In this document: in pieces, positions 28,706-60,352 of the stretch
How the letters are laid out: each line of letters opens with the position of its first letter
Position numbering within the stretch: position 1 is the stretch's first letter
Assembly: GCA_041659685.1 (NCBI GenBank)
Contig: JBAZXV010000008.1
Coordinates: 3,332 to 67,331, forward strand
DNA length: 64,000 nucleotides
Source: Parcubacteria group bacterium
GTDB taxonomy: Bacteria > Patescibacteriota > Minisyncoccia > Moranbacterales > UBA11712
Direction of reading: 5' to 3'
Translations under genes and position numbers: made by a program
The notes under the pieces: generated by a model
The model's database searches: none
Told to the model about the DNA's origin: nothing
The model's input: only the letters and a program-made list of their open reading frames with translations

Positions 28706-28791
28706 ATGGAATACAGATTGTGAACAGATTTGACACAGATTAATTTGCAATGATCTGTATTATCCGCGTGTAATCTGTCAAAAATTTGCGT

Positions 28792-31695
28792 TTAATGTGT
28801 GATTACGAAGTTTATCAATCTGTCTTTCACAAAAATAATTTTCCGTATATCTTTTCCTTCCGTGTATTTTATAATCTTTTGGCTCTCGAGCGCCAGCTTC
28901 TTCGCTTCCTCTTCCTTGACACCGGACGGGACCTTAATCTGGTCGCGAACCTTACCGTTCACTTGAATAATCAGCATTATTTCTTCGTCTTGGACGAGTT
29001 TCGGGTCATACTCCGGCCATTTTTCAAAAAATATAGATTCTTTGCGGCCGAGTTTTTCTTGCCATATCTCCTCCGCCATATGCGGTGCGAATGGGCTTAG
29101 TATAGTATTTAGCAGTTGGTAGCTGATAATCGGTAACTCTTTTTCTTTCTCCATTTCATTCACTAAAATCATCATCGCCGAAATCGCCGTATTGAACCGC
29201 AGATTATCGATATCTTCGGTAACTTTTTTTATAGTCTTATGCAATAATGAATTTATTTTCGTGTTTTGTGTTTTGGGGCCTGGGTTTTGTTTGGTATTTT
29301 GTGTGTTCGTGCTTTGTGTTTTTTCTTCCAATCGCCAGACCCGCTCCAAAAATCTTCTCAATCCTATAATACTGGATGTGTTCCATCTTTTCATATCCTC
29401 AAGCGGACCCATGAACATTTCATAAAGCCGAAGGACATCCGCGCCGTACTCTTTCACTATTTCATCCGGATTAATGACGTTTCCCAAAGACTTCGACATT
29501 TTCCGCCCGTCCTCGGCAATAACAATCCCTTGATGGCGAAGTTTTTTGAACGGCTCGTCGAAATCGATGCGGCCGTGCCTGTGAAGCGCTTTCGTGAAAA
29601 ATCGGGAATACAGCAAATGAAGAACCGTGTGTTCGGCGCCACCGATATAGAGGTCAACCGGCAGCCATTTTTCTATTTTTTCTTTTCCGGCAAATTCTTT
29701 TTCGTTCTTCGGATCAGAAAATCTGAAAAAATACCAGGATGAGCAGACGAATGTGTCCATCGTGTCGAGCTCCCGTTTTGCGGCGGCGCCGCATTTCGGA
29801 CAAACCGTATTCACAAAATCAGAATTTGTTCCAAGCGGCGATGTTCCTTTCGGGCGATAATCCTTCACCTCCGGAAGAAGAACGGGAAGATCTTTCTCGG
29901 AAACCGGCTGCCATCCGCACTTTTCGCAATAAATCATCGGTATCGGGCTTCCCCAATATCTTTGCCGCGAAATGAGCCAGTCGCGGATCTTATAGGTTGT
30001 TTTTCTTCCGCCAAAATTATTTTTTTCAAGCCAAACGGCCATTTCTTCGCGGGCTTTTTCCGATGAAAGACCGGAATATTTTCCCGAATTCACCAAAAAT
30101 CCCTTTTCGGTTAGCACTTTTCCTTCGAGATAAGAAAGATCGATCTTGTCCTTCTCTTCGCTCCTGTTTTTTATGAAATAATTTTTCAAATTTATGAGAA
30201 ATTTCCGGCTCAAAACAAGTGACTGATAATCGCCAAATGTTTTGATCTCTTCTTCGAAATCACAATCTTTTAATCCGTATTCCCAGGCGCAAGGGCCGAT
30301 ATCCACTTCGATTCCGTTTGAATTTTTGAAAATAAAGTTAGTCAATTTTTCGGTTAACTTTTTCTCTTTTATCTTTTCGAAGCCAAGCTTCTCGAGAACG
30401 GCTATCATCTTTTCCTGCGAAGCCGGATCTCTGGCGATCAGATCCAGATCGTCGTGCTCGCGATATACGATTCCCGCATAAAATGCATTGGCCAGGCCGC
30501 CAAGAAGCCAGAACTTTACATTTTCTTTTTGCGCTTCATTATATATTTCCTTCAGGGCCTCCAGAACCTTTATTGTCTTTTCATAAGATTCGAAATCAAG
30601 AGTGATGGATTGGCTTATCGGCAGATTGTATTTTTTTGCAAACTCAAAATCCCGCTCGTCGTGAGCCGGAACAGCCATTACTGCGCCGGTGCCGTAGGTT
30701 GAAAGAACATAATCGGCAACGAATATGGGAACTTCCTTGTCCGTGAAGGGATTAATTACCCTAAGGCCTTTGATTTCGACTCCCGTTTTTTCTTTCTGGA
30801 GTTCCGTTCGCTCGAGATCCGTTTTCCTTTTCGCTTCGTTAATATATTTTTCAACTTCCTTGTAATTTTCAATCCCATCTTTTATTTTTTCTATAATCGG
30901 ATGTTCTGGAGAGACAACTGCATAGGTCATGCCATATACAGTATCCAAACGAGTTGTATAGACCCTAATTCCTGATTCGTAATTCGTAATTCGTAATTCA
31001 AATTCCGCGCCGACGGACTTTCCAATCCAATTTTTTTGCGCGATTTTTGTCGATTGCGGCCAGTCAATCTTGTCGAGCCCCTCAATGAGTTCTTCCGCAA
31101 AATCGGTTATCTTGAAAAACCACTGCTCAAGATCTTTCTGGATCACTTCGTTCTTGCAGCGTTCGCAAATTCCGCCTTCCGCCTGCTCGTTGGCGAGAAC
31201 CGTCTGGCAGGATCCGCACCAGTTTACCTTCGCCTTTTTGCGGTAAGCAAGGCCGTTTTTATATAAAAACAAAAAGAACCATTGGGTCCATTTGTAATAT
31301 CCGGGATTCGAAGTGTCGATTTCCCGCTTCCAGTCATAAGACAGCCCAAGGCTCTTGATTTGTCCCGTAAAATTTTTGATATTTTGATGCGTACTCTTGT
31401 CGGGATGAACTCCGGTCTTGATGGCATAGTTTTCCGCCGGAAGGCCGAACGCGTCCCACCCCATCGGATGCAGAACATTTTTTCCTTTCATTCGCTGATA
31501 ACGGGAATATATGTCTGAGGCAGTGTATCCTTCCACGTGCCCGACATGGAGCCCGTCGCCCGAAGGATACGGAAACATATCAAGGCAATAGAATTTTTCC
31601 TTTTCCGACTTCTCGTCCGCCTCAAAAAGTTCCGGATGCTCCGCCCAGTATTTTTGCCACTTTCTCTCAATTTTCTTAGGATTATACTTAGGCAT
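28792..31695 (-). CDS. leuS: leucine--tRNA ligase
   Basis: 967 aa. PYPSGDGLHVGHVEGY (HIGH) and KMSKSLGNVI (KMSKS) motifs. Confidence 0.95.
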   Translation of the reverse strand: MPKYNPKKIERKWQKYWAEHPELFEADEKSEKEKFYCLDMFPYPSGDGLHVGHVEGYTASDIYSRYQRMKGKNVLHPMGWDAFGLPAENYAIKTGVHPDKSTHQNIKNFTGQIKSLGLSYDWKREIDTSNPGYYKWTQWFFLFLYKNGLAYRKKAKVNWCGSCQTVLANEQAEGGICERCKNEVIQKDLEQWFFKITDFAEELIEGLDKIDWPQSTKIAQKNWIGKSVGAEFELRITNYESGIRVYTTRLDTVYGMTYAVVSPEHPIIEKIKDGIENYKEVEKYINEAKRKTDLERTELQKEKTGVEIKGLRVINPFTDKEVPIFVADYVLSTYGTGAVMAVPAHDERDFEFAKKYNLPISQSITLDFESYEKTIKVLEALKEIYNEAQKENVKFWLLGGLANAFYAGIVYREHDDLDLIARDPASQEKMIAVLEKLGFEKIKEKKLTEKLTNFIFKNSNGIEVDIGPCAWEYGLKDCDFEEEIKTFGDYQSLVLSRKFLINLKNYFIKNRSEEKDKIDLSYLEGKVLTEKGFLVNSGKYSGLSSEKAREEMAVWLEKNNFGGRKTTYKIRDWLISRQRYWGSPIPMIYCEKCGWQPVSEKDLPVLLPEVKDYRPKGTSPLGTNSDFVNTVCPKCGAAAKRELDTMDTFVCSSWYFFRFSDPKNEKEFAGKEKIEKWLPVDLYIGGAEHTVLHLLYSRFFTKALHRHGRIDFDEPFKKLRHQGIVIAEDGRKMSKSLGNVINPDEIVKEYGADVLRLYEMFMGPLEDMKRWNTSSIIGLRRFLERVWRLEEKTQSTNTQNTKQNPGPKTQNTKINSLLHKTIKKVTEDIDNLRFNTAISAMMILVNEMEKEKELPIISYQLLNTILSPFAPHMAEEIWQEKLGRKESIFFEKWPEYDPKLVQDEEIMLIIQVNGKVRDQIKVPSGVKEEEAKKLALESQKIIKYTEGKDIRKIIFVKDRLINFVITH

Positions 31696-31841
31696 AATTT
31701 AAATGTTTTGCCCCTTAACTCTATCCCATTTGGGGATTTTTTTCAACTTATAATTTGATTTTTATATTATTGACAACCAATAAAAAAAGTGTTAGCGTTC
31801 TTCGACAGATCTTTGTCAAAAAATTTTTGCCGGAGGGGCAG

Positions 31842-58973: not shown

Positions 58974-59071
58974 AAATATGAATTAAATCTTAATTAAAAA
59001 AATAATGCCTCCTACAATGCTATCAGCTTAATTTCTATTTTGCAATATTCGCATGAGATCCTGATAAAATT

Positions 59072-60190
59072 TCAAATTGTGAATTGTCGCAAGGCGGCCG
59101 GCCAGCGGTTCGCCGACGGAAAGAGATGCCGAAGATAGGCCCGGGTATAATTTCGGCATGTATAGCAATCGCAGTTCCTGTCCAGGGGCGAAAAATCTTT
59201 CTTGAATTTATGGTTGGTTATGTTGATATTTCTGTAAAAATTTTTTGTTTTTATGTTCTTTTTGCCGGTTTTCCAAACAAACACCGACCCATGCCGGGCG
59301 TTCCGGGTCGGAATGACGCAATCGAACATATCGATTCCGGAATTAACGGCGTGAACAATTTCCTCCGGCCTTCCAAGCCCCATCAGATATCGCGGTTTTC
59401 CCTCCGGCAGAAGCGGCAAAACCCACTCCAGGATTTTTTTCATTTTTTCCCTCGGTTCGCCGACCGCCACTCCCCCAATGGCATACCCGTCCCAGCCCGA
59501 GGCTGGTCCGCCCAGAGCGGAAAAATCCAAGTTCATAAGTTGTTTCGCCGATTCAAGCCTTAAGTCCTTATATATGGATCCCTGAACGATACAGAAGAGC
59601 AATGGTCTGCCATTTTTATATTTATTTTTATTCTTCGCAACTTCCCTGTGAAAATATCGAAAGCATCTTTCCGCCCATCTCGTCGTCATTTCGAGCGATT
59701 TTTTTGCGTATTCGCCCGAACACGGGTACGGAGGACATTCGTCGAGAACCATAATAATGTCGCTTCCGAGCGCCAGCTGTATTTCAACTGATTTTTCCGG
59801 CGTCATGAAATATTTTTTTCCGTCAGAGGGATCGCGGAACTCGGCGCCCTTCTCGCTCAGAATAACTTTGCTCCGGTTATCGCGCCTTCCCGCAAGCGAA
59901 AAAACCTGGTACCCCCCCGAATCGGTCAGAATCGGCCCGCTCCAATTCATGAATTTATGCAAACCGCCCGCTTTTTTCACCAGTCCATGCCCCGGACGAA
60001 GCCAGAGATGGTAAGTGTTTCCGAGGACGATTTCAGCTCCGACCTCTCTCAGTTCCTCGGGATTCAGATTCTTGACCGCCCCTTTTGTCGCAATAGGCAA
60101 AAAAAACGGAGTGTTGATAACGCCGCTTTTCGTATGCAGTCGGCCTATTCTCTTTTTATTTTGACCTTTAACAAGTTTGAGCATAATCAT
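59072..60190 (-). CDS. tgt: queuine tRNA-ribosyltransferase
   Basis: [13 protein letters not shown] motif and C-terminal zinc site CDCYTC. Confidence 0.9.
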
Positions 60191-60352
60191 AAAAATCCTA
60201 AACTCTAAGTACTAAATTCTAAACAAATTCAAATTTTCCAAATTCAAATGCTGAAAAATTTTTGAATTTTGGTTATTTGAATTTTTCAGCCAGAGACTGA
60301 TCCGCCTTTGGCAGAGATATCGTTCAGGATTTAGAAATTAGTATTTAGGATT

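What the first reader, a model, noticed from the sequence alone, without database searches (positions are those of the whole stretch)
28710..60350. Almost every intergenic spacer in the housekeeping block is a long imperfect palindrome of iterated 6-8-nt units
Repeated design: 3-4 direct copies of a short unit, a short spacer, then 3-4 inverted copies. Each site has its own unit. CAGATT(A) at 28721-28790 (leuS to nucleotidyltransferase). CAGATTA/AATCTGC at 42541-42640 (atpE to atpF). CGGATTA flanking the atp GxxExxY gene. ACGAATA/TATTCGT at 45001-45087, 46555-46640 and 47045-47135 (around metG and GxxExxY number 2). CAATT/AATTG at 41485-41640 (atpA to atpH). ATTAATCA at 42985-43045 (atpB to atpE). 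ATTTATGA at 49560-49640. CTAAAT at 60190-60350. Units resemble GATTA-type cores. Inside co-directional operons these would form long RNA hairpins or cruciforms. They could be processing or attenuation signals, protein-binding iterons, or decayed MITEs. They are not ordinary terminators, because they lie inside the atp operon.
Basis: seen in the sequence. Interest (0 to 1): 0.55.

Follow-up and report, generated by a model that had tools for sequence, protein, structure and literature searches.

The report
Selfish hairpin elements filling operon spacers
The palindromic gaps between these housekeeping genes are real: they are copies of small hairpin-forming, mobile-type DNA elements in a Moranbacteria (CPR) genome, and one family is the same hairpin that elsewhere carries a small GxxExxY nuclease gene in its loop.

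Summary
The window is from a Candidatus Moranbacteria (CPR) genome. Its genes lie on the minus strand and include a complete atpBEFHAGDC operon. The palindromes exist and are far beyond chance, but they fill about half of the spacers, not almost all. The sites also share units. They sort into dispersed families with a period of 7 nt (AT-rich) or 9-11 nt (CAGATT type).

Close relatives have empty 10-35-nt spacers at the same junctions, or unrelated hairpins there. Near-identical elements sit at different junctions in different genomes. Sense and antisense strands fold equally well. In relatives the same design is inserted in frame inside atpA and atpD.

Joining the two flanks of the atp-operon GxxExxY gene rebuilds, end to end, the 107-nt gene-less hairpin between atpE and atpF (77/102 identical). 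Seven base pairs show compensatory change across the family.

These are therefore selfish elements of the MITE, RPE or rRNA-intervening-sequence kind, with or without a PD-(D/E)XK nuclease gene in the loop. They are not terminators, and there is no sign that they evolved on the spot as RNA signals. RNase III processing of the co-transcribed hairpins is plausible by precedent but untested. Mobilisation by GxxExxY is a new, untested hypothesis.

The parts
28706..28791 (.). Gene-less hairpin of the GATT family in the leuS to nucleotidyltransferase spacer. ACAGATT-type units are followed by AATCTGT units.
   Evidence: Sequence. Covariance model R1 scores 73 bits, E 8e-13. It aligns to the joined GxxExxY flanks at 58/78, z 9.4.
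42535..42641 (.). Gene-less hairpin of the GATT family in the atpE to atpF spacer, 107 nt, with 5+5 units.
   Evidence: MFE -40.9 kcal/mol, z -7.7 to -8.4. R1 scores 106 bits, E 3e-20. It is 77/102 identical to the joined GxxExxY-1 flanks and 83/100 identical to the L124 atpC-downstream hairpin.
37336..37401 (-). 5' arm of the GATT-family hairpin that carries GxxExxY-1, in the atpD to GxxExxY spacer. It has five units of (C/G)(A/G)GATT type.
36895..37335 (-). GxxExxY / PDDEXK_3 nuclease gene, 146 aa, sitting in the apical loop of the hairpin inside the atp operon. Its last codons run into the first 3'-arm units.
   Evidence: TIGR04256 at 2.5e-24. PF13366 at 1.4e-24. Conserved E34, D75, E85-x-K87 and Q99. 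AF2 model pLDDT 87 with a PD-(D/E)XK fold.
36854..36894 (-). 3' arm of the same hairpin, in the GxxExxY to atpC spacer, with AATCCG/AATCTG units.
   Evidence: Cofolding with the 5' arm gives -34.3 kcal/mol, z -4.9. Alignments.
45001..45087 (.). ACGAAT-family hairpin in the metG to tatD spacer.
   Evidence: It is related to L083 and L001 copies of the family (z 4-5.5).
46627..47043 (-). Second GxxExxY gene with one in-frame TAA, so a probable pseudogene. Its 3' end runs into ACGAA units.
   Evidence: Translation. The VDF...VEIK nuclease motif is retained.
47044..47125 (-). Upstream flank of GxxExxY-2, carrying ACGAA(T/A) units.
46555..46626 (-). Downstream flank of GxxExxY-2. It holds ACGAA units and a partial inverted copy.
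   Evidence: It shares about 30 nt with 45049-45087.
41502..41634 (.). Long imperfect hairpin of heptamer units (TCAATT/AATTGA) in the atpH to atpA spacer. The same spacer is 17 nt in relative L084.
   Evidence: MFE -36.9 kcal/mol, z -6.1 to -6.3. Empty site shown. A public Logan contig breaks inside it, at window position 41610.
39931..39964 (.). Compact palindrome CATTCAATGTTAGGGAGAACCCCAACATTGAATG in the atpA to atpG spacer.
   Evidence: z -5.5 to -5.8. The same element, tail included, lies at the atpD to atpC junction in L084. Variants occur at other junctions in L084 and L001.
38801..38902 (.). Heptamer hairpin of the CAAAA/TTTTG family in the atpG to atpD spacer.
   Evidence: z -4.6 to -4.9. 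It is 87% identical over 102 nt to 36323-36421. Alignment.
36323..36421 (.). Second copy of the CAAAA/TTTTG hairpin, downstream of atpC.
   Evidence: z -5.4 to -6.9..
54690..54830 (.). Third, more diverged member of the CAAAA/TTTTG family.
   Evidence: It shows compensatory TGACA/TGTCA against CCACA/TGTGG in the other copies.
43008..43049 (.). Short hairpin with TTAATCA / CATTGAA units directly after the atpB stop codon.
49571..49638 (.). Weak heptamer hairpin with TTTATGA / TCATAAA units.
   Evidence: z -2.5 with mononucleotide shuffles and -5.0 with dinucleotide shuffles. TRF gives period 7.
60194..60352 (.). Long imperfect hairpin with CTAAAT / TTTGAAT units that fills the whole tgt-upstream spacer.
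   Evidence: MFE -49.7 kcal/mol, z -5.3 to -6.4.
30966..30999 (-). Array of about 4-5 GAATTAC heptamers (ACGAATT family) translated in frame in a length-variable loop of LeuS.
   Evidence: TRF. Sequence. Protein alignment.
44774..44804 (-). GAATTAN heptamer array translated in frame in a variable loop of TatD.

Best explanation
**What it is.** The palindromic spacers are copies of several families of small selfish DNA elements, about 35-160 nt long, that form hairpins. They have colonised the short gaps between genes of a Moranbacteria genome. Each element has two arms made of 4-5 short units and their inverted copies, so it pairs with itself.

**How they are tolerated (inferred).** They land immediately after a stop codon. 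They are carried passively inside polycistronic transcripts because a self-pairing insert leaves the next, mostly Shine-Dalgarno-less, start region free.

**The GATT family (shown).** CAGATT/CGGATT units are spaced 9-11 nt apart. The family occurs as a gene-less hairpin (atpE-atpF, leuS-NT). It also occurs as the same hairpin with a GxxExxY (PD-(D/E)XK) nuclease gene in its apical loop (atpD-atpC). This is the relation of a MITE to its gene-bearing parent, or of ORF-less to ORF-bearing rRNA intervening sequences.

**Steps that are shown:** the elements are real, they form families, they turn over between relatives, their arms co-vary, and the ORF sits in the loop.

**Steps that are inferred:**
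- that they move, and by what enzyme. GxxExxY cutting or binding the phased units is the leading candidate.
- that the transcribed stems are cut by RNase III. That would split the atp mRNA, as happens with Correia elements and rRNA intervening sequences.
For: **Real and specific to the lineage.** Folding z-scores are strongly negative in the window and in Moranbacteria relatives, but not in non-CPR controls. Unit statistics also exceed shuffles.

**Turnover between close relatives.** In relatives with 84-90% AtpG identity, several orthologous spacers are far shorter than in the window (gene tables; DNA):
- atpH-A: 17-29 nt against 152.
- atpG-D: 23 nt against 165.
- atpC-downstream: 10 nt against 99.
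- leuS-NT: 9-37 nt against 86.

**Movement.**
- The 44-nt CATTCAATGTTAGGGG... element sits at atpA-G in the window and at atpD-C in L084.
- The window atpE-F hairpin is 83/100 identical to the L124 atpC-downstream hairpin.
- Dispersed copies occur within single genomes.

**Link to the GxxExxY gene.**
- The joined GxxExxY-1 flanks (107 nt) align end to end with the 107-nt gene-less hairpin: 77/102 identical, z 14.7.
- Across 7 members, 30 consensus pairs are predicted and 7 show compensatory change.
- The covariance model finds further members in other Moranbacteria-related loci.
- In 33 GxxExxY genes against 290 control genes, CAGAT, AACAC, CGGAT and CACGG occur in both flanks in 4-6 genes against 0 (p 7e-7 to 9e-5). 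The opposite polarity occurs in both flanks of at most one gene per 5-mer (none for ATCTG).
- Flank complementarity is higher than in controls, p=1.4e-5.
- All 15 gene-less GAT-type hairpins have the same polarity.
- Treponema and Fusobacteria GxxExxY genes are also flanked by CACGGAT/ATCCGTG.

**DNA-level nature.**
- There is no sense-strand folding bias.
- L124 has a 32-aa in-frame insertion of the element in AtpA (R1 E 4e-9).
- L002 has an insert of like design in AtpD.
- Heptamer arrays lie inside leuS and tatD.

**Precedent in the literature.**
- The Coxiella 23S intervening sequence has a 28-bp stem of terminal inverted repeats, an ORF in the loop, and 2-3 tandem GACAGAT heptamers upstream of the ORF. 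RNase III excises it (PMC4990558).
- CPR rRNA genes carry ORF-less and 23S_rRNA_IVP-bearing insertions (PMC11270868).
- RNase III cuts Correia elements in mRNAs, and Rickettsia palindromic elements insert in frame (PMC10969869).
Against: - No target-site duplication or clean insertion boundary could be defined. Flanks are AT-rich and diverged.
- No transposase lies in the window.
- Only one 64-kb window and about 20-kb pieces of relatives were available, so genome-wide copy numbers are unknown.
- Some hairpins are kept at the same junction across relatives: L001/L083 at leuS-NT, and the window and L004 downstream of atpC. Arms also co-vary. Both fit some selective constraint, and gain versus loss cannot always be told apart.
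- The AT-rich heptamer families were not tied to any gene and could partly grow on the spot by slippage.
- GxxExxY-2 does not sit in a clean hairpin.
- Only about a third of GxxExxY loci show the flank motif.
- No RNA data exist.
Confidence: 0.7

Rival explanations
1. The hairpins are RNA elements selected at each junction. Intercistronic stems would set mRNA processing, differential stability, attenuation or translational coupling, and so tune ATP synthase subunit stoichiometry.
For: - They lie inside a co-directional operon.
- They start 0-3 nt after stop codons and end 3-20 nt before starts.
- They are long enough for RNase III.
- Arms co-vary.
- Cyanobacterial 7-bp-repeat hairpins between hupS and hupL have been proposed to stabilise transcripts or couple translation (PMC2670836).
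Against: - There is no sense-strand folding advantage: 22 vs 21, p=0.99. Other lineages show one: 48 vs 15.
- Close relatives have empty spacers or unrelated hairpins at the same junctions.
- The same element occurs at unrelated junctions and inside coding sequence.
- Shine-Dalgarno sites are rare genome-wide (9 of 49 genes), so their absence after hairpins is not special.
Confidence: 0.12
2. The arrays are not mobile. They grow on the spot by polymerase slippage of heptamers, as proposed for long simple sequence repeats and cyanobacterial STRR. Intra-strand template switching then copies one arm onto the other.
For: - Period-7 enrichment is 10-fold. It is also seen in spacers without hairpins and inside genes.
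- L002 atpD-C has a direct-only TTTCTAA x4 array.
- Heptamers are the commonest long simple repeat in prokaryotes, with slippage proposed as the cause (PMC4679880, PMC4692102).
- GACAGAT copy number varies among Coxiella strains (PMC4990558).
Against: - Whole elements are conserved unit by unit between different junctions and genomes, including unit-specific linkers and non-repeated tails.
- The GATT family has a 9-11-nt period, not 7.
- Polarity is fixed in 15 of 15 cases.
- Slippage alone does not explain inverted arms.
Confidence: 0.12
3. The arrays are DNA-level protein-binding sites with a host function, such as iterons, operators or nucleoid organisers.
For: - CAGAT/CGGAT cores are spaced about one helical turn apart, 9-11 bp.
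- They lie in inverted arrays with fixed polarity, as at transposon ends.
- The AT-rich units resemble -35/-10 hexamers. There are five promoter-like matches in 41481-41634.
Against: - Units differ between families, so no single host protein fits.
- Sites are dispensable in close relatives.
- Sites occur inside coding loops.
- No candidate host regulator lies nearby.
- Binding by the element's own nuclease belongs to the best explanation, not to this rival.
Confidence: 0.05
4. The palindromes are chance products of AT-rich, low-complexity sequence.
For: Spacers have 20-38% GC, and short AT-rich k-mers recur easily.
Against: - Dinucleotide-preserving shuffles give z down to -10.
- Sites with 3+3 units number 3 against 0.007 expected.
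- AT-rich spacers of other lineages lack the signal.
- Homologous copies exist.
Confidence: 0.01

Closest known systems
23S rRNA intervening sequences (IVS), e.g. the Coxiella burnetii helix-45 IVS with the S23p ORF
   Same: - A selfish insert in a transcribed non-coding site.
- Terminal inverted repeats form a long stem.
- A small ORF of unknown function may sit in the loop.
- Tandem GACAGAT heptamers lie upstream of the ORF and their copy number varies (PMC4990558). The core and orientation match the (C/G)ACAGAT(T) units here.
- Both ORF-less and ORF-bearing forms exist in CPR (PMC11270868).
- A 23S_rRNA_IVP gene sits in the atpF-atpH spacer of relative L005.
   Different: - Here the host site is an mRNA operon spacer, or in relatives a coding loop, not an rRNA helix.
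- The ORF is GxxExxY/PDDEXK_3, not S23p.
- The arms are 4-5 iterated units separated by internal loops, not one 28-bp stem.
- RNase III excision is untested.
MITEs transcribed within operons, e.g. Neisseria Correia elements
   Same: - Size of about 100-150 nt.
- Inverted-repeat, hairpin-forming, dispersed and intergenic.
- Present or absent between relatives.
- Co-transcribed with flanking genes. Correia stems are cut by RNase III (PMC10969869).
   Different: - No target-site duplication was identified.
- No IS transposase parent is known.
- The arms are made of iterated short units.
- The candidate partner is a PD-(D/E)XK nuclease.
REPIN-RAYT systems (REP doublets and their Y1 transposase; PMC3116915)
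   Same: - Hairpin-forming doublets of short inverted repeats are dispersed in spacers.
- The associated enzyme gene is itself flanked by the repeats.
   Different: - No RAYT lies in the window. There is only a weak Y1_Tnp hit in L084.
- There is no GTAG/CGTC head.
- Units are AT-rich and iterated.
- The enzyme is PD-(D/E)XK and occurs in several copies.
Rickettsia palindromic elements (RPE)
   Same: - Palindromic elements of about 100-150 nt in a reduced, host-dependent genome.
- They are found both in spacers and in frame inside essential genes. Here these are AtpA of L124 and AtpD of L002 (PMC10969869).
   Different: - Unrelated sequence and lineage.
- RPEs are not known to carry an ORF in the loop or to be built of iterated units.
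Cyanobacterial STRR and prokaryotic heptameric long simple repeats (also TAACTGA repeats, Xanthomonas GGGAATC)
   Same: - Tandem 7-nt units concentrated in spacers.
- They are sometimes arranged as inverted arrays that form hairpins inside operons, as between hupS and hupL.
- Function is unknown (PMC2670836, PMC4692102, PMC4679880).
   Different: - Different taxa and unit sequences.
- Here most arrays are short (3-5 units) and paired with an inverted array as a discrete, copyable element.

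Membership tests
MITE (miniature inverted-repeat transposable element) | Terminal inverted repeats in a short (<300 nt) non-coding element | tested here: met
   Arms pair along 30 consensus positions. 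Elements are 86-110 nt long.
MITE (miniature inverted-repeat transposable element) | Multiple dispersed copies, with presence or absence at orthologous sites | tested here: met
   Only partial genomes were available.
MITE (miniature inverted-repeat transposable element) | Target-site duplication | tested here: inconclusive
   Comparing filled and empty sites gave no clear duplication, because flanks are AT-rich and diverged.
MITE (miniature inverted-repeat transposable element) | A longer parent element with the same ends that encodes the mobilising enzyme | tested here: inconclusive
   A gene-bearing form with the same arms exists, the GxxExxY form. Whether that nuclease mobilises anything is untested, and it is not a known transposase.
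23S rRNA intervening sequence (IVS) | Inserted in helix 25 or 45 of 23S rRNA | tested here: not met
   The elements lie in mRNA spacers. The window has no rRNA (Rfam gave 0 hits).
23S rRNA intervening sequence (IVS) | Long terminal stem, with an optional small ORF in the loop | tested here: met
   The ORF is PDDEXK_3 here and 23S_rRNA_IVP in L005.
23S rRNA intervening sequence (IVS) | Excision by RNase III | not testable with these tools
   Needs RNA end mapping or an enzyme assay.
REP / REPIN-RAYT | Associated RAYT (Y1 HUH) transposase and a GTAG/CGTC-tagged REP | tested here: not met
   No Y1_Tnp among the window genes tested against NCBIfam or Pfam (28.0-63.7 kb); genes at 14.8-28 kb were not scanned. 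The units lack the tag.
STRR / heptameric long simple sequence repeats | Tandem repeats with a 7-nt period enriched in spacers | tested here: met
   Lag 7 is 10.4 times the shuffle level. Spacers have 4.4 hits per kb against 0.64 per kb in coding sequence. The GATT family, with its 9-11-nt period, does not fit.
STRR / heptameric long simple sequence repeats | The cyanobacterial consensus units (CCCCAGT, TTGGTCA, CAACAGT, from my own knowledge of Mazel et al. 1990) | tested here: not met
   Units here are TCAATT(N), (N)NCAAAA, ACGAAT(T/A) and TTTATGA. CAACAGT appears only once, next to the L005 23S_rRNA_IVP gene.
Rickettsia palindromic elements | In-frame insertion of the palindromic element in protein-coding genes | tested here: met
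   Met in relatives: L124 AtpA gains 32 aa (R1 E 4e-9) and L002 AtpD carries a like insert. In the window itself there are only short arrays in leuS and tatD.
Rickettsia palindromic elements | Sequence homology to RPE families, Rickettsiales host | not tested
   The lineage is different (CPR). No RPE sequences were compared.
Intrinsic (Rho-independent) terminator | GC-rich stem followed by a U tract | tested here: not met
   The scan flags none of the iterated hairpins as a whole (one weak 6-pair match, 37354-37370, lies in the GxxExxY 5' arm). It does flag canonical terminators at 34942-34971 and 35794-35818 (folds).
TIGR-Tas arrays (CPR and phage guide-RNA arrays) | Tandem 36-nt units with box C/D-like motifs next to a Nop-domain Tas gene | tested here: not met
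   Periods are 7-11 nt. The hairpins are single and dispersed. No Tas or Nop gene was found among the window genes tested (28.0-63.7 kb). Array description is from PMC12045711.

The most novel reading that the evidence does not exclude
GxxExxY (PDDEXK_3) proteins are a large family of unknown function. They may be the nucleases of a widespread, undescribed class of hairpin cassettes.

- The gene sits in the loop of a stem built of helically phased (A)CAC(A/G)GAT(T) units.
- The units would serve as binding sites or portable homology arms.
- The gene would home into, or mobilise, gene-less copies of the same hairpin.
- The class would be kin to rRNA intervening sequences. It spreads through operon spacers, and even through coding loops of ATP synthase in CPR bacteria.
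- RNase III would excise the transcribed copies.
Probability: 0.3. Interest if true: 0.75.

Novelty: new variant of a known kind. Interest (0 to 1): 0.6.

Why it matters
- **It explains an odd feature.** Tiny, streamlined CPR genomes carry bloated, palindromic gaps inside their most essential operon. The reason is that a self-pairing insert is nearly harmless.
- **It gives GxxExxY a context.** This family has many paralogues, has no known function, and is hardly mentioned in the searched literature. The finding gives it a concrete, testable setting: a nuclease gene sitting in the loop of a repeat-built hairpin that also exists without the gene.
- **It links scattered phenomena.** rRNA intervening sequences with GACAGAT heptamers, cyanobacterial 7-bp-repeat hairpins, and palindromic inserts in proteins like those of Rickettsia may be faces of one kind of element.
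- **Practical consequences.** These hairpins break short-read assemblies. A public contig ends inside one. They also add spurious peptides to conserved proteins such as AtpA and AtpD.

Tried and rejected
**Known RNA classes.**
- Rfam at gathering threshold and ARAGORN found nothing in the window.
- The terminator scan rejects the hairpins as terminators.

**Hairpin-mediated translational coupling or shunting.** The geometry fits: each stem starts at the stop codon and ends near the start codon. Shine-Dalgarno sites are rare genome-wide (9 of 49 genes). Purifying selection on where an insert can land explains the geometry equally well. I did not pursue this further.

**Sense-strand G·U enrichment as a test for RNA selection.** No bias was found.

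**Strain-level polymorphism.** The only other contig carrying the identical AtpF is 100% identical to the window. Three of the closest relatives came back as gene tables without DNA.

**Target-site duplications.** None were convincing.

**TIGR arrays, CRISPR and integron attC sites.** All were rejected on period, context and the absence of partner genes.

**GxxExxY structure.**
- There is no sequence match in the PDB.
- Foldseek gives only generic PD-(D/E)XK relatives such as Cas4, lambda exonuclease and 3ijm, at E about 1e-3.

**GxxExxY-2.** Its flanks do not rebuild a clean hairpin.

**Covariance model R1.** It does not capture the ACGAAT family convincingly (E 0.03-0.7). A common origin of the GATT and ACGAAT families is therefore unproven.

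**The apparently ORF-free first 14.6 kb.** This was an artefact of ORF listing. It is a gene of more than 4,900 codons that runs off the window edge.

Full report
**Context.** From 14.8 kb onward almost all genes of the window lie on the minus strand.
- Protein family scans identify leuS, a sugar-phosphate nucleotidyltransferase, a complete F-type ATPase operon in the order atpB-E-F-H-A-G-D-(GxxExxY)-C, tatD, metG and rsmI, among others.
- The AtpA protein is 87% identical to that of a Candidatus Moranbacteria genome bin. The next relatives are all Moranbacteria or Patescibacteria. The source is therefore a CPR bacterium.
- The source contig is 74.6 kb and is labelled Parcubacteria group.

- Folding each spacer on the transcribed strand gives long imperfect hairpins with strongly negative z-scores:
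  - atpE-F: -40.9 kcal/mol, z about -8.
  - atpH-A: z about -6.
  - atpA-G: z about -5.7.
  - atpG-D: z about -4.8.
  - downstream of atpC: z -5.4 to -6.9.
  - 60.2 kb: z about -6.
- Of 31 spacers of 40-250 nt, 10 have z < -4 and 15 have z < -3 against dinucleotide shuffles. Chloroflexi and other non-CPR loci fetched with the same query have medians near 0.
- The specific design, a 6-mer at least twice direct plus at least twice inverted, occurs in 8 of 39 spacers against 0.62 expected. The 3+3 form occurs in 3 spacers against 0.007 expected.
  - About half of the spacers are affected, not almost all. Others are plain or hold ordinary GC-rich terminators with a U tail.
  - The sites are not each unique (see the section on families below).
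- The repeat period has two modes.
  - AT-rich units recur every 7 nt. Exact 5-mers at lag 7 are 10.4 times shuffles and at lag 14 are 7.9 times shuffles.
  - In the window, lag-7 repeats occur at 4.4 per kb in spacers against 0.64 per kb in genes.
  - CAGAT/CGGAT cores recur every 9-11 nt.

**Comparison with relatives.** The atp region is syntenic in Moranbacteria loci L001-L007, L083-L085 and L124.
- Their spacers are also rich in iterated-unit hairpins, but the occupant of a given junction changes. The leuS-NT junction carries CAGATT units in the window, ACGAAT units in L001 and L083, and TTTCTAA/TTGAAAA units in L004.
- In relatives with 84-90% AtpG identity many junctions are short and unstructured:
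  - atpH-A: 17-29 nt against 152.
  - atpA-G: 9-12 nt against 46.
  - atpG-D: 23 nt against 165.
  - atpC-downstream: 10 nt against 99.
  - leuS-NT: 9-37 nt against 86.
- Spacer lengths are thus bimodal, either empty or occupied.
- The same element also turns up at different junctions.
  - The palindrome CATTCAATGTTAGGGGAACCCCAACATTGAATG, with its GTTGTRAAAAAA tail, lies at atpA-G in the window and at atpD-C in L084.
  - The window's atpE-F hairpin is 83/100 identical to a hairpin downstream of atpC in L124.
- Some hairpins are kept at one junction across relatives. L001 and L083 are 90/95 identical at leuS-NT.

**Families.** BLAST of spacers against each other shows dispersed families within and between genomes.
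- In the window, 36323-36421 and 38791-38955 are 87% identical over 102 nt.
- A third, diverged copy at 54.7 kb and the L004 atpC-downstream hairpin align with them. They show compensatory differences, CCACA/TGTGG against TGACA/TGTCA.
- L083 has three ACGAAT-family copies in 10.7 kb.

**The link to the GxxExxY gene.**
- The 146-aa gene between atpD and atpC is a PDDEXK_3 / TIGR04256 protein. It has conserved E, D, ExK and Q residues and a confident PD-(D/E)XK model.
- Its upstream spacer has five (C/G)(A/G)GATT units. Its downstream spacer has the inverted units in nested order. Cofolding gives z -4.9.
- Joining the two flanks gives 107 nt that align end to end, unit by unit and linker by linker, with three gene-less hairpins:
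  - the 107-nt atpE-F hairpin: 77/102 identical, z 14.7.
  - the L124 hairpin: 77/101.
  - the leuS-NT hairpin: 58/78.
- Across seven members, RNAalifold predicts 30 pairs. Seven of them show compensatory double changes, CAGAT/ATCTG to CGGAT/ATCCG to CAAAT/ATTTG.
- A covariance model built on them finds members it was not trained on in L005/L006, L008, L025, L102 and L124.
- The association is general.
  - Among 33 GxxExxY genes from metagenomes, plasmids and these loci, CAGAT, AACAC, CGGAT and CACGG occur in both flanks in 4-6 genes, against 0 of 290 control genes. The opposite polarity occurs in both flanks of at most one gene per 5-mer (none for ATCTG).
  - Flank complementarity exceeds controls, p=1.4e-5.
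  - All 15 gene-less GAT-type hairpins share the polarity of the gene-bearing ones.
  - Treponema and Fusobacteria plasmid copies are flanked by CACGGAT/ATCCGTG.
- The second GxxExxY gene of the window (46627-47043) has one in-frame stop. It is embedded in ACGAA units but not in a clean hairpin.
- Other small selfish-type genes occupy atp spacers in relatives: 23S_rRNA_IVP in L005 and GIY-YIG in L006.

**DNA-level or RNA-level?**
- In Moranbacteria hairpin spacers the sense strand is no more stable than the antisense strand (22 vs 21, p=0.99). Structured spacers of the other lineages are clearly sense-biased (48 vs 15, p=5e-5).
- The model hit at L124:514-616 lies inside atpA and adds 32 residues in frame to a surface loop.
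- L002 AtpD has an insert of the same design at the equivalent loop.
- In the window, GAATTAC heptamer arrays are translated inside variable loops of LeuS and TatD.
- These points favour a DNA-level selfish element over RNA signals evolved at each junction.

**Comparison with what is known.**
- Heptamers are the most over-represented long simple repeats in prokaryotes, and slippage has been proposed as the cause (PMC4679880, PMC4692102).
- Cyanobacterial STRR 7-bp repeats form hairpins between hupS and hupL. Their function is unknown; transcript stability or translational coupling has been suggested (PMC2670836).
- The Coxiella 23S intervening sequence is a selfish element with a 28-bp terminal stem and an ORF in the loop. 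It has 2-3 tandem GACAGAT heptamers upstream of that ORF, and RNase III excises it (PMC4990558).
- CPR rRNA genes hold both short ORF-less insertions and ones that carry 23S_rRNA_IVP (PMC11270868).
- RNase III cuts Correia MITEs within mRNAs, and Rickettsia palindromic elements insert in frame in genes (PMC10969869).
- PDDEXK_3 is listed as of unknown function (PMC3424549). The searched library holds no account of its flanking repeats.
- The present case combines these traits: a hairpin element like an intervening sequence, a MITE or an RPE, with or without a PD-(D/E)XK gene in its loop, spread through the operon spacers of a CPR genome.

**Mechanism and confidence.**
- Shown: the hairpins are real, form families, turn over between relatives, have co-varying arms, and one family has gene-less and gene-bearing forms.
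- Inferred with good support: they spread or are lost as discrete DNA elements. They are tolerated because a self-pairing insert placed right after a stop codon leaves the next start region free.
- Inferred from precedent only: RNase III cleavage of the transcribed stems.
- Hypothesis: GxxExxY binds or cuts the phased units and homes into, or mobilises, gene-less copies.
- Growth of the AT-rich heptamer arrays on the spot by slippage remains a partial alternative.

**Verdict.** There is no support for evolved attenuation or processing signals.

Noticed in passing
window 1-14766 (minus strand): This stretch looks ORF-free in ORF lists only because a single giant open frame of more than 4,900 codons runs off the left edge. 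It has 52% GC against about 44% elsewhere. It contains 147-nt (49-aa) tandem repeats at 2165-2694 and 4765-5181. It is probably a giant surface protein.
   Followed up: partly
L124:514-616 (Moranbacteria JAQVJV010000009.1, inside atpA): A GATT-family hairpin element is inserted in frame in atpA. It adds 32 residues (SHELDTDSTQRTQMGNLCNPREISDKSAKIGG) to a loop where other relatives have different or no inserts.
   Followed up: yes
L002:12895-12996 (inside atpD): AtpD carries an in-frame insert of about 30 aa. It is encoded by CACGAAT/CACAAAT units followed by ATTAGTG/ATTGGTG units, the same hairpin design. L005 and L006 have a different insert at the same loop.
   Followed up: partly
window 30966-30999 (leuS) and 44774-44804 (tatD): GAATTAC / GAATTAN heptamer arrays are translated in frame in length-variable loops of LeuS and TatD. 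In relatives the same loops hold other low-complexity inserts.
   Followed up: partly
window 46627-47043 (minus strand): A second GxxExxY gene is interrupted by a single in-frame TAA after residue 39 and is otherwise intact. It is either a recent pseudogene or a sequencing error.
   Followed up: partly
L005:7931-8281 and L006:12796-13092: In relatives a 23S_rRNA_IVP (four-helix-bundle) gene sits between atpF and atpH, and a stand-alone GIY-YIG nuclease gene sits between atpG and atpD. Both are flanked by repeated or palindromic sequence.
   Followed up: partly
window 41610 (inside the atpH-atpA hairpin): A public Logan assembly contig (SRR18595301, 9,257 nt, 100% identical) ends exactly inside this hairpin. 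This suggests that these elements break short-read assemblies.
   Followed up: no
window, all gene starts from 14.8 to 63.7 kb: Only 9 of 49 genes have a GGAG/GAGG/AGGA motif upstream. Most starts, including most atp genes, are preceded by AU-rich sequence without a Shine-Dalgarno site.
   Followed up: partly
L084:3282-5214: In a relative, a PDDEXK_1 gene and a 216-aa gene with a weak Y1_Tnp (IS200/RAYT-like) hit lie just upstream of the atp operon. This could be a mobilising enzyme for REP-like palindromes in that genome.
   Followed up: no
window 50914-50960 and 52458-52582: Other palindromes differ in style from the iterated-unit hairpins. Two near-perfect copies of CTAAGGTTCAACCTTAG abut the start codon of the M16 peptidase gene. 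GC-richer hairpins lie after the M17 peptidase gene.
   Followed up: no
window 52865-53178 and 33385-33726: Two unusually long spacers (314 and 342 nt) have no recognised gene or Rfam hit. The first has 46% GC, folds with z -3.4, and holds a 66-aa ORF with no Pfam match.
   Followed up: no
L004:9436-9579, 11558-11640, 14594-14697: A GC-rich palindromic family (TGTCATCCCCGCGAAAGCGGGGATCC...) occupies three atp spacers of relative L004. It is shared with L006 and L025. It is a different family from those in the window.
   Followed up: no
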